A stretch of 64,000 bases of DNA from Candidatus Iainarchaeum sp. (GTDB lineage Archaea; Iainarchaeota; Iainarchaeia; Iainarchaeales; Iainarchaeaceae). The position numbers and the translations under genes are program-made. This document shows positions 58,206 through 64,000 of the stretch, one piece after another. The stretch is taken from contig JACQPB010000039.1 in assembly GCA_016202305.1 (NCBI GenBank), positions 6,661 through 70,660 on the forward strand, in the 5' to 3' direction. Within the stretch, counting starts at the first letter, position 1. The number at the start of each line of letters is the position of its first letter. The notes under the pieces are model-generated. The model did no database searches. It saw only the letters and a list, made by a program, of their open reading frames with translations, and was not told where the DNA came from.

Positions 58206-61200
58206 TTACCTCACATAGCTCGGCTTGAACGCCTGCGCCACGGAGTGCTTGAAGCCGTCGTACGCCTCAGTAGTTTCCTTCGAAATCGACGGAAGGATTT
58301 TCTTGAGCGCGGCCTCGAAGTGCGACATCCTGACCTCAGCGGGCCTGAATCCCGCCTCCTGCATGGAAACCAGCGCGGCCTCACGGATGAGCCCTTCGAG
58401 GTCGGCGCCGCTGTACCCATCGGTTTTTGACGCGAGAGCGAAAATTGTGGGATAAACAAGGAGTTCTTTAAGTTCCTGTTTTTCAGGAATTTCCCCAAGC
58501 GAATCAAAGAATTTTTTCCTGTCTTCAGTGCTTTTCTTGTCCGTCAGCCTGGAAAACAATTCTTTCACTTTCTTGGAAATGCCTGGCGAATACTCTTTTG
58601 CCAGCCAATCCAGCTCATTGTCCGAAAGAGAAAACTCGATTGGAACGTCCTTCGAATGTATCTTCAGGATAAGCTTCCTCGCCTCGAAGTCCGGTGCGGG
58701 GACCTTTATTATCTTGTCAACCCTCCCCGGCCTCAGAAGCGCCGGGTCAATCAAGTCTGGTCGGTTGGTGGCCGCAACGAAGACAACCCCCTTTAGCTCC
58801 TCGATGCCGTCAAGCTCCGTGAGAAGCTGGTTCACCATCCTTTCCCCGACACCGCTGTCTGTGGAGGAGCCACGGCGTGCGGCAATGCTGTCAATCTCGT
58901 CGAAAAAAACGACAACGGGGGAAACCTGCCTCGCGCGCTGGAAAACCTTCCGGATGCCTTTTTCGCTGTTGTGCGCAAATATTCCGCCAAAACCGGCAAC
59001 AAAATTCTGGCAAGGTTCAACGGAAACGTCATAGACAAAGCCAGAATACGTGATTTCTTTTATTTGTTCTACTTTGTCCCAGTAAATATCCGATTCGACA
59101 AGTTTCCACAAAGAGGAGTATTTTTCCCTCTGTAAGTCGATAGTGCATAATGCTTCTCTGAGTTTCTTCACGCCAACAGAATTATTATGCGGATAAGAAC
59201 CGAAAGCCGTTTCAAGAACTTCGGTCAATTTATCACATATTGGGATGACGTTGCTCCGCGCCCAAGACTTTTCCCCGATATATTTTCCGATAAGCATATT
59301 TCTCCTGGAATCAATAAATCCTACGTTGAGGAATTTCCTGAAATTATCAACCCCGAATATCTGCACCCTGTGACTTATGCTCCCGCTCCATTCGCGTTTT
59401 TCCCTGCATGAGGCAACTATCCCGAGTTTCAGGAAAAGATACAATAAATCATTAGCCAGGCTTTTACTAACAGTTGTTGCCTCGATAACATATCTTCTTT
59501 CAGATTTTGTAATGGAGCCATCGCCGCTAAAATAGCCTTTCAGGAAATTATGAACTTGCTCGTTTGAACCCGCGAACAAAAATCCTGGAACACTTTTGTT
59601 GAAAGCACCTGTCTTGAGGCCGAAAACCTTTTCCAAAACATGCTTGAAAATGCAGGAATTTATTACGGCGCCGGTTTCCGTGAAAGTCGCTTTCAGGCCA
59701 AAACTCGACAATATTTTTGACAAATCCGACCTTATTTCCGGGTTTGCATTGGTAATCCGCACAATGTCTCTATTGAAATCGTCTTCAGCAACAAACAAAC
59801 CGAGCAACCTACATAAACCTGAGTTGACATTCAGCAGAACGGGCAGGTGACTTCGCGCACCTTTAACCCCAATAGTCACGCTTGTGAAATCCGGAGTAAA
59901 TCCAAGCCCCGAAATGAGTTTTGCGAACCTTGTCGTCTCCACCGGAAGATTTTTCCCGGTTATATCAGACAAATATTTTTTACTCAGACCGAGACCTTGC
60001 GACACCTTGTCCAGGCCATGCTGTTCTTTTGCCCTCAGGATGTTTTCCCTCAGATTTCCAAGTACGAACCCGCTTTTATCCCTGAAATCATCAAACAAAT
60101 TTATTTGGCGGCGGTCCAAAGAAATGTTTGGAACCCTGGAAGGGACTGCTATAACACTTTTCCCCGCGACAAGATCTTCGGTAGCAATTGATTCTATTTC
60201 CGTGCCAACCAGGCCGAACAATGAATGCTTATCAGTAACTCTTATTGCCCTTCCTGTTTTCGTTTTCACTTCAAGCATTCTGCCGTTCAATGAGTGTTTT
60301 ATGTGGCCATTTATCCTGGAAAAAAGGGCCTTGCCATCAGAATCAAACGTAACTACCTGAACATCCAATTTCTCCTCTACGATTTTTCCTATCTTTTCCC
60401 TGAAAATCTTCTTTCCGTCAAAAACCAGGAGTTCCTCATCGTAAGGCAAACTTTCCCCAACCCACATGCTTATGAGCTGCGGCCCCTTGATGCTGATGAA
60501 ATTGGCTTCAGACTCTGTAGCTATTGCCTTTGCCACGGCTGTTTTTCCACAGCCCGGCGGGCCATAAAGAAGTATGCCGCGCGGAGGCTTTATGCCCATT
60601 TTCTGGAAGCTCTCAGGGTGCTTCAGCGGCCACTCTACAGCCTGCCTGAGCTCGCTCTTAAGCTCCTCAAGGCCGCCGATGTCCTGCCATTTGACATTCG
60701 GAACCTCGATGGAAACCTCGCGGAGCGCCGAAGGCTGGACGTCCTTCAGGGCCTCGAGGAAATCGTCACGCTTCACCTCAAGGCTCTCAAGAACTTCCGG
60801 CGGAATGGTCTCCTCCTCGAGGTTTATTTTAGGGGCCTTGGGGTCGTCAGGATTGAGGTACCTGCGCAGCGCCTTCATCGCGGCCTCCTTCGCGAGCGAC
60901 TCCAGATCAGCGCCGACGAACCCGTGCGTTATTCCCGCGAAATAATCAAGGCCTATGTTCTTGGAGAGCGGCATCCCGCGCGTGTGAATCGTGAGAATTT
61001 CCATGCGCCCCTTCTTGGACGGCACCCCTATTTCAATCTCGCGGTCAAAGCGCCCGGGCCTCCTGAGGGCCTCATCAATGCTGTTCACCCTGTTAGTGGC
61101 GCCAATCACTATCACCTGGCCGCGGGACTCCATGCCGTCCATCGCGGAGAGTATCTGCGCCACGACACGCCTTTCAACCTCGCCCACTACCTCGTCGCGC

Positions 61201-63518
61201 TTCGGGGCTATGGCGTCAATCTCGTCGAAGAAGATGATTGAGGGCGCGTTCTTCTCCGCCTCCTTGAACACCTCGCGGATGCGCTCCTCCGCCTCCCCGA
61301 CGAACTTTGAATTATGCAAAACCATCAGGGAGTGTCCTGCAAGGAAATTATTGAAAGGTTCAACGGTGAGGTCAAATAACTCTTTTTCGCCTTCTTCGCT
61401 AATGTCCGTAACTTTTGCCCATCTAAGCTCGGCGTTGACCAAACACTCCAGAGGCTTGTCGTCTTTTCCGAAAAGGGAGTAAATCTCCTTGAGCTTTCTT
61501 ACAGTCAATGGAGCCCTTCCTGAAATATACCTCTCTGTCGGCCATTCTGGAAGGGTTTTGCCATAAACAAGATTTTTTTTCGATTTTATTTTTTTGAGCA
61601 GAGGGCTTATATCAGGGATTCCCAAATCATCCCCTTTCTTCTTTCTCCCCGTATACCATTTCCTGATGATGGAATATTTTTCCGTGTTGGACTCTACCAC
61701 TTCGGCAAATATCTCTCTCGACCTGTTGCCTACAAATGTCAGTGCCCACATGTCCGAGAGTTTTGTCTTCCAAGGCTTGATTTCAGCTATTAGCCCGAGC
61801 TTTTTACCCAGAACTGAGAGCTGCTCAAGTACAGTCCTTGTAATGGAATAAATCCTTATAGTAGGATAGCCGCCAACGCCCCTGCTCGTGGTACCGTCAC
61901 CTTCCCAAAAACCCCTTATAAAAGAGGCGATTTCTGATTTAGGAAGTGAAAAAAACCATTCTGGAAGCGAGTAATCGCCTTTTCTTCCTATCGGGCTGCC
62001 CAGGACCTCAGAGAAGAAATGCCGCAGAGTCCTTGAATAGCAATGTACGCGATTGTTCTTAATTTTCGGTTCGATAGCGAAGGCTGATTCGCATAGCTGT
62101 GCGAATTCACCGAGCAGAACCGGGTCATTGTTTGAGAAATGCAGGCCATCCTCTGTTATATTCCCTTCAGAATACATGAAACCCAGTATCCTCATCAACT
62201 CTGGAGAGGTTTTCTGCGGAAGCGAAACAAAATTTTCAGCCCTGCTGCGTTTCCTATGGTCAATTTTCACCCCAAGAACTTCCTTATTTTTGGAAGCTAT
62301 ATGGAGTTTTTTTACCCCGTCAGGAGTTTTTACGAATGTTGCATCTGGAAAGCCACTCAAATAATCTCCGAATTCATGACTCTTGCCCTCAGGCAGCGCT
62401 GATGCAATGGCAATTTTATCCCCGGCCTTCAACTCAGAGGCGGTCTTCCATACAATGCAGCCAAAAGAATCCAGCATGGCAAAAGGTTGATTGGAAGAGA
62501 CTACAACCTCATCGCCAAGATGGGTTTTAACCTTATAAGTGTTTGCCCGCAACTTTGTGAGATGGGTTACTTTTCCTTTCTCGATTTTGAGGTCATTATT
62601 TAGCGAGTATACCGAAAGCGGCTCTTTGAGCTCCACAATCTTTAGCTTCCCGTCATTTACCAAAGTGCCACTTTCCAAAGCCTTGCTAAACATTTCCTCT
62701 GCCCTCTCAAAGCCTTTAGGGTTTGTCAGGATCTGTGTGTTGCCCTCAACACACATTATGCTGGGGCTGGAAATCGAAATGAAGTGCGCCTGCGTCTCGT
62801 TCGCCACGGCCTTCGCAAGAAGCGTCTTTCCAGTTCCAGGAGGGCCATAGAGAAGCACGCCCTTGGGAGGATTGATGCCAAGGCGCCTGAAAATCTCAGG
62901 ATGCCTCATGGGCAGCTCTATCATCTCCCGTACTTTCTGGACCTGTTCATCGAGCCCGCCGATGTCCTCGTAGGCTATGCGCGGTATGCCACCGAGGGAA
63001 TCCTTCACAGGCTCCTCCTTGAGTATGAACTGCGTGAAATCCGTGACCTTTACGATGCCCCTCGGATTCGTGTCCACGACCTGGTAAATGAAGCCCGAAC
63101 CGAAGACGCTTATCAGCACCCTGTCGCCCTTGTTCAGGGGCCTGCCGATAAAGTTCTTCTTGAGAATGCGGTCATACCCGGACGCGATTATCCTCACTTC
63201 CTGAGTAGGGGCGAGAACCACGCGCTTGGCCTCCCCGAAGTCAGCCTTCTGAATAACCACTTTCTCCCCGAGGCCCACACCGGCATTCCGCCTGATTAGG
63301 TTGTCCATCCTTATGAGCGCCTTGCCCTCGTCCTCAAGACGTGCCGGCCACACAATGGCGGCCGTCCTCTGCGGCCCTATGACCTCGACAATGTCCCCGG
63401 AAGTTATGCCGAGCTCCTCCTTCGTCTTGCGGTCAAGTGTTATTATGTTGCGGCCGACATGAGAAGGGTCGGGCTCCTCCACACGAAGGCTCAACTGCGG
63501 CTTCTTTCCCAGGCCCAT
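58206..63518 (-). CDS. cdc48: Cdc48/VCP-like double-AAA+ ATPase carrying two in-frame inteins
   Basis: N-domain (…[28 protein letters not shown]…); D1 [20 protein letters not shown]…[12 protein letters not shown]; D2 [20 protein letters not shown]…[12 protein letters not shown]. Likely ATG at 63518 (MGLGKK…). Confidence 0.9.
58968..60452 (-). other. Cdc48 intein 2 (495 aa, D2 module, Ser1, LAGLIDADG-type domain)
   Basis: …[12 protein letters not shown]|[13 protein letters not shown]…[11 protein letters not shown]…[11 protein letters not shown]…[14 protein letters not shown]|[17 protein letters not shown] at 60450-52. AAC at 58968-70. Confidence 0.8.
61311..62753 (-). other. Cdc48 intein 1 (481 aa, D1 module, Cys1, LAGLIDADG endonuclease domain)
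   Basis: …[10 protein letters not shown]|[10 protein letters not shown]…[10 protein letters not shown]…[10 protein letters not shown]…[15 protein letters not shown]|[18 protein letters not shown] at 62751-53. AAT at 61311-13. Confidence 0.85.
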
Positions 63519-63651
63519 GAAAGTAAGGATTAAGGTAACAAATAATAACATAACTCATTGTAAAGCCGCGGCGCAAAAAGCCGATGAATCGGCTATGTTG
63601 AAATGTCGCTTTGAGTAATCATTTTAACCTCCATTGTTATTAAAACTGTTT

Positions 63652-63797
63652 GGGGAGTGCCTCCAACAAATACGGCTATCCGCAGTCTCTGTTCGAGCTG
63701 CACTAGGAACATTTGGTTTGGAGGAGAGCACGCGCTAATCGAGACAGGCAGTCAAAAGCTGCAGATTCATCAGAGCGTCTTTGCTCTCTCACTCCCC
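63652..63797. ncRNA. structured element (three-way junction), candidate IS110-family bridge-RNA-like ncRNA
   Basis: P1 is GGGGAGTG (63652-59) with CACTCCCC (63790-97). P2 is CCTCCAA (63660-66) with TTGGAGG (63718-24). P3 is AGAGCA (63725-30) with TGCTCT (63782-87). The stems abut with almost no junction nucleotides, and each arm encloses ~50 nt with further local pairing. The strand is undetermined. Confidence 0.3.
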
Positions 63798-63810
63798 AAA
63801 TTCTTGTTCC

Positions 63811-64000
63811 TTAACAAGCATCAATGAATTTTTCCCTCCTCTTGAGCATGAAAAACATTGTCGTCAACATTTTTCGCGCAACAGCAATAATCGCTTTACT
63901 TACCCCAATCTTCCTTTTTTTCTTCAAAAAGAATTTCCTCAGCTTTCCTTTTTTGCGCACAGCAACCCATGCGCACTGAGTTAGCACCCAACGAAGTTCC
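63811..64000 (-). CDS. IS110-family (DEDD) transposase/recombinase, C-terminal end only (runs off the window)
   Basis: Hand-translated: …ELRWVLTQCAWVAVRKKGKLRKFFLKKKRKIGVSKAIIAVARKMLTTMFFMLKRREKFIDAC*. This matches the …A..A.R….lk.fy…..GK..k.AivAvARKll… C-terminal pattern of the family. TAA stop at 63811-13. Confidence 0.6.
   Translation of the reverse strand, partial: ELRWVLTQCAWVAVRKKGKLRKFFLKKKRKIGVSKAIIAVARKMLTTMFFMLKRREKFIDAC

What the first reader, a model, noticed from the sequence alone, without database searches (positions are those of the whole stretch)
63552..64000. Partial IS110-family element whose 3' non-coding end forms a tight three-way junction (bridge-RNA-like), abutting the cdc48 promoter region
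The last 63 codons of an IS110-type DEDD recombinase run off the window (stop at 63811). Only 14 nt downstream begins a ~146-nt segment (63652-63797) that folds into three directly abutting helices (8, 7 and 6 bp). Two of them cap ~50-nt arms with internal pairing and loops. Established work from 2024 shows that IS110-family elements encode a structured bridge RNA in a non-coding end, with two internal loops that specify target and donor DNA. The position and two-arm architecture fit that idea. The element end lies ~100-250 nt upstream of the cdc48 start, so it may also supply or disrupt its promoter.
Basis: partly seen in the sequence, partly recalled or inferred. Interest (0 to 1): 0.6.

Follow-up and report, generated by a model that had tools for sequence, protein, structure and literature searches.

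The report
Archaeal IS1111-type element with bridge RNA
The end of this window holds the tail of a broken jumping gene of the IS110/IS1111 kind in a small uncultured archaeon. Its non-coding tail encodes a two-loop guide ("bridge/seek") RNA that spells out the insertion site and the element's own ends, a mechanism described in bacteria in 2024, so this is a well-supported but ordinary new example.

Summary

**What is there.** Window 63592-64000 (minus strand) is the right part of an IS1111-group (IS110-family) element. This copy is dead. Its recombinase gene has a -1 frameshift about 14 nt beyond the window and is split by a second IS further on.

**The RNA.** The 219-nt non-coding right end folds as a closing helix plus two arms, each a large internal loop capped by a hairpin.
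- Ten relatives (45-83% protein identity) keep the fold: 92.5% of cells are paired, against 37-52% in slid controls, and 15 pairs show compensatory changes.
- The loop strands co-vary with the DNA.
  - Arm 1, 5' side, is complementary to core plus right target flank. In a test over eight target types, only the true pairing of 40,320 permutations reaches the observed score.
  - Arm 1, 3' side, repeats left flank plus core.
  - Arm 2 repeats the element's right end plus core and partly complements its left end.

**Boundaries.** Empty target sites in the same genome fix the boundaries. The subterminal inverted repeats lie 5 nt plus the 2-nt core from the left end and 3 nt from the right end.

**cdc48.** The element ends 73 nt upstream of the cdc48 start, and the conserved TATA-like box is retained.

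**Limits and verdict.** No expression data could be obtained. This is a new member of a known kind.

The parts
63811..64000 (-). Last 62 codons plus stop (63811-63813) of the IS110-family (IS1111-group) recombinase pseudogene. The reading frame is broken by a 1-nt deletion at about window 64014, just outside the window. The N-terminal third is separated by a second IS.
63790..63800 (-). P1, 5' strand of the closing helix of the bridge RNA (UUUGGGGAGUG).
63724..63789 (-). Arm 1, the target-binding loop. It comprises a closing stem (63783-63789 / 63724-63729), an inner stem (63774-63779 / 63731-63737), a large internal loop and an apical hairpin (63748-63762).
63764..63772 (-). Right-target guide UGAUGAAUC. 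GAUGAAUC is complementary to the top strand of core-G plus right flank ATTCATC. That flank is shared by the three independent insertion sites of this subtype.
63738..63747 (-). Left-target guide strand CUGUCU-CG-AU, in the same sense as left flank + core + the first two nt of the left end. The match is weak for this copy (3 of 8 flank positions plus the G of the core). It is clear in relatives, and A versus pyrimidine at the first core position (AG versus YG) agrees in all 10.
63661..63723 (-). Arm 2, the donor-binding loop. It comprises a closing stem (63718-63723 / 63661-63666), an internal loop and an apical hairpin (63681-63702, with a U.G pair invariant in 10 of 10).
63703..63717 (-). 5' strand of the donor loop (ACCAAAUGUUCCUAG). 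It is partly complementary to the left end G-ATGACAT. One position co-varies with the left end in three relatives.
63673..63679 (-). Left-donor guide AUAGC-CG, in the same sense as the last 5 nt of the element plus the core.
63649..63659 (-). P1, 3' strand (CACUCCCCAAA).
63610..63648 (-). Conserved tail between the RNA fold and the inverted repeat (…AAUGGAGGUUAAAAUGAUUACUCAAA…). Its function was not established. It could hold an outward-facing promoter element.
   Evidence: conservation only
63595..63609 (-). Right subterminal inverted repeat GCGACATTTCAACAT. Its partner ATGTTGAAATGTCGC lies at the left end on contig C16.
63592..63594 (-). The three terminal nucleotides (AGC) beyond the inverted repeat. 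This is the last base of the element.
63590..63591 (-). Core dinucleotide CG at the right junction.
63583..63589 (-). Right target flank ATTCATC (host DNA), matched by the guide at 63764-63772.
63539..63554 (-). TATA-like box of cdc48 (GTTATGTTATTATTTG). It is conserved in relatives that lack the element and is retained here, 37 nt from the element's end. The cdc48 ATG is at 63516-63518.

Best explanation
Window 63592-64000 is the right (3') part of a site-specific insertion sequence of the IS1111 group of the IS110 family, about 1.26 kb long when intact. It is inserted between an NFACT-like gene and cdc48 in a small archaeal genome. Earlier notes of this scan call the organism a DPANN archaeon (Iainarchaeota/Diapherotrites); I did not check that.

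**The RNA.** The 219-nt non-coding right end encodes a bridge (seek) RNA on the recombinase-sense strand. A closing helix carries two arms.
- Arm 1 is the target-binding loop. Its 5' strand pairs with the top strand of core + right target flank. Its 3' strand has the sequence of left flank + core, so it would pair with the bottom strand, and it is followed by AU, the first two bases of the element's left end.
- Arm 2 is the donor-binding loop. Its 3' strand has the sequence of the element's last 5 nt + core, usually followed by the first base of the right flank. Its 5' strand partly pairs with the element's left end.

**Inferred mechanism.** From IS621 and ISEc11 (not shown here): a DEDD/Ser recombinase tetramer holds this RNA. 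The RNA aligns the joined ends of the excised circle with the target, and strands are exchanged at a 2-nt core (YG or AG in this clade) without a target duplication.

**State of this copy.** It cannot move by itself. Its recombinase gene has a 1-nt deletion and is split by another IS. Its RNA gene, inverted repeat and right junction are intact.

**Shown:** family membership, boundaries, conserved fold, guide/DNA co-variation.
**Inferred:** transcription, RNA-protein complex, chemistry.
For: **Family.**
- The intact sister copy (C7:29069-30052) hits PF01548 and PF02371.
- It aligns with the IS621 and ISCro4 recombinases. IDT, LEA, KTDKVDA and YQSG fall on their catalytic D, E, D, D and S.

**IS1111 hallmarks.**
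- A 15-bp subterminal inverted repeat lies 5 nt + core from the left end and 3 nt from the right end.
- The right end is long (219 nt) and the left end short (about 50 nt before the ATG).

**Boundaries.**
- Uninterrupted targets of the sister subtype exist in the same genome (C3:10272, C7:21157 and variants). They read ...GACTTT-CG-CGGTTTGATATAA.
- The occupied sites read ...GACTTT-TG-ATGACATG... and ...CATAGA-CG-CGGTTTG.
- So there is no duplication beyond the core.
- The three right ends of the window's subtype (C23, C28, C56) share sequence only up to ...CATAG(C)-CG-ATTCATC and then diverge.

**Fold.**
- z = -3.67.
- Across 10 members: 39 pairs, 92.5% of cells paired against 37-52% slid, 15 pairs with double changes against 1-4.

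**Guides.**
- The longest exact complementary run between the arm-1 5' strand and its own right junction is 8, 8, 9, 5, 9, 6, 8 and 9 nt for eight target types. Non-cognate pairs average 3.3, with a maximum of 5. Only 1 of 40,320 permutations reaches the observed sum.
- One of these pairs was a blind prediction. The guide UGCCGGUG of L066 has its own flank cut off by the contig end. A same-guide element found later with the covariance model (G105:C60) has the flank CACCGGCA.
- The first core base in both same-sense strands (arm 1 3' strand and arm 2 3' strand) is A in the four elements with AG junctions and a pyrimidine in the six with YG junctions.
- AUAG(A/C) + core in arm 2 equals the element end in all members.
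- The order (top-strand match 5' of bottom-strand match, overlapping at the insertion point) and the 3' location agree with IS1111 seekRNAs and bridge RNAs (PMC11187229; PMC11208160).
- The extra bases after the core resemble the handshake guides of IS621 (PMC11208158).
Against: - There is no expression or RNA-protein evidence.
- Rfam 15 gives no hit, and published IS1111 bridge-RNA models could not be run.
- The opposite strand folds almost as well (z = -3.12). The strand is assigned from the invariant U.G pair, from 15 G.U cells against 6 would-be G.U cells on the other strand, and from precedent. It is not measured.
- The left-target guide match is weak for this copy (3 of 8) and for three relatives. 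Left flanks are T-rich, so fixed-register identity is only 4.4 against 3.2 for non-cognate pairs.
- The donor-loop 5' strand is imperfectly complementary to the left end in all but one member.
- Only 10 sequences were used, and several are closely related. The effective number in the model is 1.63.
Confidence: 0.88

Rival explanations
1. The conserved right end is a DNA-level feature only, such as recombinase-binding sites or structured DNA next to the subterminal repeat. No functional RNA is made, and target choice is by protein-DNA contacts.
For: There are no expression data. The subterminal repeats are obvious protein-binding candidates. Both strands fold about equally well.
Against: - Compensatory changes keep helices that have no relation to the ends (15 pairs).
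- The variable loop segments track each element's flank over 5-9 nt. A protein-only recognition model does not predict that.
- Relatives of this family are shown experimentally to use such RNAs (PMC11187229, PMC11208160).
Confidence: 0.04
2. The fold acts on the plus strand (antisense to the recombinase), for example as an antisense regulator of the transposase 3' end. Alternatively it acts as a cis element affecting cdc48 transcription, and not as a guide.
For: The plus strand folds with z = -3.12. The element sits 73 nt upstream of cdc48 in the same orientation.
Against: - The pair at alignment columns 110/132 is U.G in 10 of 10 on the recombinase-sense strand. It would be C-A on the other strand.
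- The same RNA occurs next to unrelated genes in every relative, so it is not tied to cdc48.
- Guide polarity and order match IS1111 seekRNAs only on the sense strand.
Confidence: 0.04
3. The structure is merely the intrinsic terminator or 3'-UTR stabiliser of the recombinase mRNA. The matches to flanks arise because the 'flank' is really part of the element.
For: It begins 10 nt after the stop codon. Conserved flank sequence can be mistaken for element sequence, a caveat stated in PMC11187229.
Against: - Empty sites show that the matched right-flank bases pre-exist in uninterrupted targets.
- The three sites of this subtype diverge right after the 7-nt flank.
- The fold is a 150-nt two-arm junction with no U-tract, not a terminator hairpin.
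Confidence: 0.02

Closest known systems
IS1111-group insertion sequences with a 3' seekRNA (ISEc11, ISPa11, ISKpn4, ISPst6; Siddiquee et al. 2024, PMC11187229)
   Same: - DEDD recombinase of about 330 aa with the GL-P----SG motif.
- Subterminal inverted repeats with short terminal extensions.
- Long non-coding region downstream of the gene.
- The RNA segment complementary to the top strand lies 5' of the one complementary to the bottom strand, and the two overlap at the insertion point.
- Close relatives are naturally retargeted by changes confined to the guide segments.
- Targets include palindromic repeats.
   Different: - The host is an archaeon with a roughly 1-Mb genome.
- Protein identity to the solved bacterial relatives is low (E about 1e-19 to ISCro4/IS621).
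- The core here is YG or AG.
- The RNA here has a clear second, donor-type loop inside one closing helix. The 82-nt short seekRNA was sufficient in ISEc11.
- Nothing here is tested experimentally.
IS621 / ISCro4 bridge recombinases and bridge RNA (IS110 group; Durrant et al. 2024, PMC11208160; Hiraizumi et al. 2024, PMC11208158)
   Same: - Two internal loops, each with one strand pairing with the top strand and one with the bottom strand on either side of a 2-nt core.
- Target loop and donor loop are separately variable.
- Extra bases after the core match the partner DNA, like handshake guides.
- The catalytic D, E, D, D and S residues align.
   Different: - In IS621 the RNA is in the left end, upstream of the gene, and the inverted repeat is 2-3 bp. 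Here the RNA is in the right end and the repeat is 15 bp.
- The order of the guide strands within the loop is reversed.
- The core is CT in IS621.
ISPpu9 of Pseudomonas putida with the Ssr9 small RNA downstream of the transposase, and solo ssr9 copies (PMC12288879; abstract only, seen)
   Same: - An IS110-family element inserted in palindromic repeats.
- An RNA gene downstream of the transposase.
- Additional copies of the RNA gene without a transposase. Compare G105:C60, C28 and C56 here.
   Different: That system is bacterial. I read only its abstract. Whether the solo copies here are expressed or used is unknown.

Membership tests
IS110 family (DEDD/Ser recombinase) | N-terminal RuvC-like DEDD domain (PF01548) and C-terminal Transposase_20 domain (PF02371) | tested here: met
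   - The intact sister copy on C7 hits both: PF02371 at E = 2.9e-25 and PF01548 at E = 4.6e-17.
- The window's own 62 aa alone give no hit. They align along the contig with that gene at 76% nucleotide identity.
- The first 84 residues of this copy lie on contig C16.
IS110 family (DEDD/Ser recombinase) | Catalytic D, E, D, D and the Ser of the G--P----SG motif | tested here: met
   - In the alignment to IS621 (8wt6) and ISCro4 (9t56), IDT/IDT, LEA/IEA, KTDKVDA/KTDTVDA and YQSG/YESG are aligned.
- The broken copy on C23 keeps KTDKVDA and GLAPRISQSGEK.
IS1111 group | Subterminal inverted repeats of 7-17 bp with short terminal extensions | tested here: met
   The repeat is ATGTTGAAATGTCGC / GCGACATTTCAACAT (15 bp). 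It lies 5 nt + core from the left end and 3 nt from the right end.
IS1111 group | Long non-coding region at the right end, short left end | tested here: met
   There are 212-228 nt from stop codon to element end in 10 members, and about 50 nt from the left end to the ATG.
IS1111 group | Site-specific insertion without target duplication | tested here: met
   Empty and occupied sites of the sister subtype differ only by the element. Three sites of the window's subtype share the 9-nt CG-ATTCATC.
Bridge RNA / seekRNA | Conserved structured RNA with internal loops flanked by helices | tested here: met
   RNAalifold gives a consensus structure. Pair counts show 92.5% paired and 15 pairs with double changes, and the controls are far lower.
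Bridge RNA / seekRNA | Loop strands complementary to both strands of the target around the insertion point, changing with the target | tested here: met
   - Right-flank guide: 1 of 40,320 permutations reaches the observed score. One pairing was a blind prediction that was then confirmed.
- Left-flank guide: clear in 6 of 10 members, weak in 4. A versus pyrimidine at the first core position agrees in 10 of 10.
Bridge RNA / seekRNA | Second loop matching the donor (element ends) | tested here: met
   - AUAG(A/C) + core equals the right end in all members.
- The 5' strand is partly complementary to the left end, and one position co-varies (U/C/A with A/G/T).
- The left-end half is imperfect.
Bridge RNA / seekRNA | The RNA is transcribed, binds the recombinase and is required for transposition | not testable with these tools
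Bridge RNA / seekRNA | Match to a curated covariance model | tested here: not met
   In Rfam 15 the only match up to E = 10 in 63000-64000 is a chance-level RT-6 hit at E = 3.9. Rfam evidently holds no model of this clade. The published IS110/IS1111 models were not available.

The most novel reading that the evidence does not exclude
Dead or transposase-less copies keep an intact bridge-RNA gene and right end. Examples are this one and the solo RNA + right end in G105:C60, a genome in which no recombinase homologue was found. Such orphan guide genes could be used in trans by a related recombinase. Here that would be the intact C7 type, 77% identical over the stretch compared, with near-identical RNA stems. 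They would then act as RNA-guided, non-autonomous hitch-hikers or as a reservoir of alternative target specificities. Separately, the conserved A/T-rich box in the right end could be an outward archaeal promoter that now reads into cdc48.
Probability: 0.12. Interest if true: 0.55.

Novelty: new member of a known kind. Interest (0 to 1): 0.3.

Why it matters
- It extends the RNA-guided IS1111 mechanism, by sequence evidence only, to a small archaeal lineage where such elements are rare. The RNA model hits 4 of 215 genomes of the phylum.
- It gives a compact (about 150 nt), naturally retargeted set of at least eight guide/target pairs with defined ends and cores. That set could serve as comparative material for bridge-recombinase engineering.
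- For annotating this genome, it explains a contig break, a pseudogene and several short repeats.
- It shows that the cdc48 promoter region is probably intact.
- It does not reveal a new mechanism.

Tried and rejected
1. **My own error.** Everything derived from it was discarded and redone from the real sequence.
2. **Rfam search** of 63000-64000 at E <= 10 gave only a chance-level hit.
3. **Collection scans.** The genome contigs and metagenome-contig scans with the recombinase gave mostly about 28%-identical Acidobacteriota elements, which I did not examine or use. Only two close loci came back. The useful relatives came from the protein search plus contig look-ups. One look-up returned no DNA.
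4. **Empty site of the window's own insertion.** I looked in same-family genomes. The intergenic DNA is too diverged (about 75% identity in the gene, none upstream) to reconstruct it. Only the promoter box and the neighbouring gene are conserved.
5. **Ideal predicted target of this subtype** (CTGTCT-CG-ATTCATC). It is not present among the six CGATTCATC sites of the genome.
6. **A conserved mini-ORF** (MITQSDIST) after a GGAGG in the tail was considered and rejected. It is not kept in L065, L033 or L071.
8. **Covariance-model search** of the order and phylum added only one full and one partial new instance.

Full report
**Observation**

The minus strand of 63811-63999 is an ORF open at its 5' end, 62 codons long, with its stop at 63811-63813.

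The window is C23:6661-70660 of a 1.04-Mb, 56-contig assembly, and the contig runs 689 nt further. Beyond the window the frame continues in another phase. It aligns at 76% nucleotide identity with an intact 328-aa gene on contig C7 (29069-30052). That gene hits Pfam DEDD_Tnp_IS110 and Transposase_20. Its IDT, LEA, KTDKVDA and YQSG motifs align with the catalytic D, E, D, D and S of the solved IS621 and ISCro4 bridge recombinases.

The copy at the window is dead.
- A 1-nt deletion lies at about window position 64014.
- The gene is cut after about residue 84 by another repeated element. The contig end reads the C-terminus of an rve-type integrase, and that sequence is shared with the end of C25.
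- The first 84 residues and the left end lie at the end of contig C16.
- C16 also ends with the NFACT-like gene that precedes cdc48 in relatives. So C16 and C23 are the two sides of one insertion.

**The fold**

The 228 nt from the stop codon to 63583 fold on the recombinase-sense strand at -72.1 kcal/mol, z = -3.67, and none of 200 shuffles folds as well. The fold has three parts (coordinates).
- A closing helix: 63790-63800 with 63649-63659.
- Arm 1: 63724-63789.
- Arm 2: 63661-63723.

The opposite strand folds nearly as well (z = -3.12).

**Relatives**

- Close relatives are few in reference genomes: one locus in genome contigs and one in metagenome contigs.
- A protein search found about 35 proteins of 45-83% identity, mostly on contigs of 1.2-2.5 kb.
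- Seven loci with DNA were fetched. One more came from a same-family genome (L033).
- With the C7 copy, that gives 10 complete right ends of 212-228 nt.
- RNAalifold returns the same three-way junction. Each arm has a closing stem, a large internal loop and an apical hairpin. Arm 1 has an additional inner stem.
- On my 39-pair structure, 92.5% of cells are standard pairs, against 37-52% with partners slid by 1-3 columns. 15 pairs carry changes on both sides, against 1-4 slid and 4.1 +/- 1.6 in shuffles, with 0 of 500 shuffles reaching the observed value.
- One pair is U.G in all ten sequences, which favours the recombinase-sense strand.

**Boundaries**

The three right ends of the window's subtype in this genome (C23, C28, C56) are identical up to ...CATTTCAACATAG(C)-CG-ATTCATC and then diverge completely.

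For the sister subtype, uninterrupted targets exist in the same genome. Examples are C3:10272 and C7:21157, which read ...TATCAAACCGCG...GCCGAAAGACTTT-CG-CGGTTTGATATAA. This is a palindromic intergenic repeat with further variants. Occupied sites read ...GACTTT-TG-ATGACATGTTTGAAATG... and ...CATTTCAACATAGA-CG-CGGTTTGATATAA.

It follows that:
- the element runs from ATGACATG... to ...CATAGA/C;
- it has a 2-nt core and no other duplication;
- its 15-bp inverted repeats are subterminal, 5 nt + core from the left end and 3 nt from the right end.

This is the IS1111 hallmark, as is the long right end (PMC11187229; PMC11208160).

In window coordinates the element ends at 63592, the core CG is 63590-63591 and the right flank ATTCATC is 63583-63589. 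The structure therefore lies inside the element.

**Guides**

Sequence differences between subtypes are concentrated in the internal loops.

*Arm 1, 5' strand.* It is complementary to the last base of the element + core + right flank.
- This copy: GAUGAAUC against G-ATTCATC.
- L064 / L033: GCAACCCAU against A-TG-GGTTGC.
- C7 type: CAAACCGU against A-CG-GTTTG. This is the junction on C53. The C7 junction has one more CG, in a CGCG context.
- L070: CGCCCCUU against A-AG-GGGCG.
- L071: GUUUGCUUC against GA-AG-CAAAC.
- L069: one G.T pair.
- L065: one mismatch.

Over eight target types, cognate longest exact runs are 5-9 nt. Non-cognate runs average 3.3, with a maximum of 5. Only the true assignment of 40,320 permutations reaches the observed sum.

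One pair was a blind test. L066 is cut at its last base, so its flank was unknown. A same-guide element found later with my covariance model (G105:C60) has the flank CACCGGCA opposite the guide UGCCGGUG.

*Arm 1, 3' strand.* It has the sequence of the last 4-5 bases of the left flank + core + AU. Examples are L067 UGUUU-UG-AU = TGTTT-TG-AT and L069 UUUUU-AG-AU. The flank part is weak in this copy (3 of 8) and in three relatives. The first core base is A exactly in the four elements with AG junctions.

*Arm 2, 3' strand.* It is AUAG(A/C) + core in every member, equal to the right end. The next base equals the first base of the right flank in 7 of 9.

*Arm 2, 5' strand.* It is only partly complementary to the left end G-ATGNC. 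N co-varies (U/C/A with A/G/T) in three members, and L071 is a perfect 6-mer.

The order (top-strand match 5' of bottom-strand match, overlapping at the insertion point) is the one reported for IS1111 seekRNAs. The extra bases after the core resemble the handshake guides of IS621.

**Mechanism (inferred)**

The inference comes from IS621 and ISEc11; none of it is shown here. A recombinase tetramer carries the RNA. The donor loop holds the joined ends of the excised circle and the target loop holds the target. Strands are exchanged at the core. This copy lacks a working recombinase.

**cdc48**

In relatives without the element, cdc48 is preceded by a conserved CAATTAGTTATATTCTTATT box about 20-35 nt before the ATG. 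Here the box (63539-63554) and the ATG (63516-63518) are retained, 37 and 73 nt from the element's end. Disruption of the promoter is therefore unlikely. Whether the right end supplies an outward promoter is untested.

**Distribution and novelty**

The covariance model hits 4 of 215 genomes of the phylum held. Two of these hits are remnants without a recombinase gene.

Bridge RNAs were predicted in 93% of IS1111 elements of ISfinder. Earlier notes of this scan report similar archaeal elements; those are leads, not evidence.

I found no paper on this clade. The mechanism is the known one, so this is a new member of a known kind.

**Limits**

- There are no expression data.
- Rfam has no matching model.
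- The sample is small and partly redundant. The effective sequence number is 1.63.
- The taxonomic label (DPANN, Iainarchaeota/Diapherotrites) comes from earlier notes and a record title, 'MAG: archaeon'. I did not test it.

Noticed in passing
G000 contigs C3:10272, C7:21157, C7:30687, C7:35960, C44:52806, C53:7202 (not in the window); also the right flank of L071: A palindromic intergenic repeat, GCTATCTATCAAACCGCG-(about 19 nt)-CGCGGTTTGATATAA, recurs in this genome and is the target of the sister subtype. A related element in another assembly (L071) is inserted at a different position of the same kind of repeat. Its arms end in TATA-like TTTGATATAA, so it may be a promoter-bearing or REP-like repeat of these archaea.
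   Followed up: partly
C23:71209-71349 (beyond the window), C25:32860-33000, C16:130956-131087: The IS110-type element is itself split by another repeated element. One side ends with the C-terminus of an rve-type integrase (…YNKKRLHSAIGYKPPAEFE…). The other side is a repeat also found at the ends of contigs C21, C15, C54 and C36. These are nested insertion sequences, and they explain the contig breaks.
   Followed up: partly
C28:34952-35037 and C56:8656-8721 (not in the window): Two further right-end remnants of the window's subtype, 86 and 67 nt long, sit at different sites that share only CG-ATTCATC. Each abuts another repeat family (C28 tail: six contigs; C56 tail: C26, C9). All three copies of this subtype in the genome are therefore broken.
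   Followed up: partly
L086 (G105:C60:1150-1302 and flanks): A same-genus genome in which no recombinase homologue was found carries a complete bridge-RNA gene plus right end. Its guide still matches its flank.
   Followed up: partly
window 58206-63518 (minus strand): The cdc48/VCP-type AAA ATPase gene is 1,770-1,781 codons long. It contains two large intein-like insertions, one in each ATPase domain.
   Followed up: no
window 63610-63648 (minus strand): A conserved …AAUGGAGGU(A/U)AAAAUGAUUAC… box lies between the RNA fold and the right inverted repeat in nearly all family members. Its function is unknown. It may be an outward promoter used at the circle junction.
   Followed up: no
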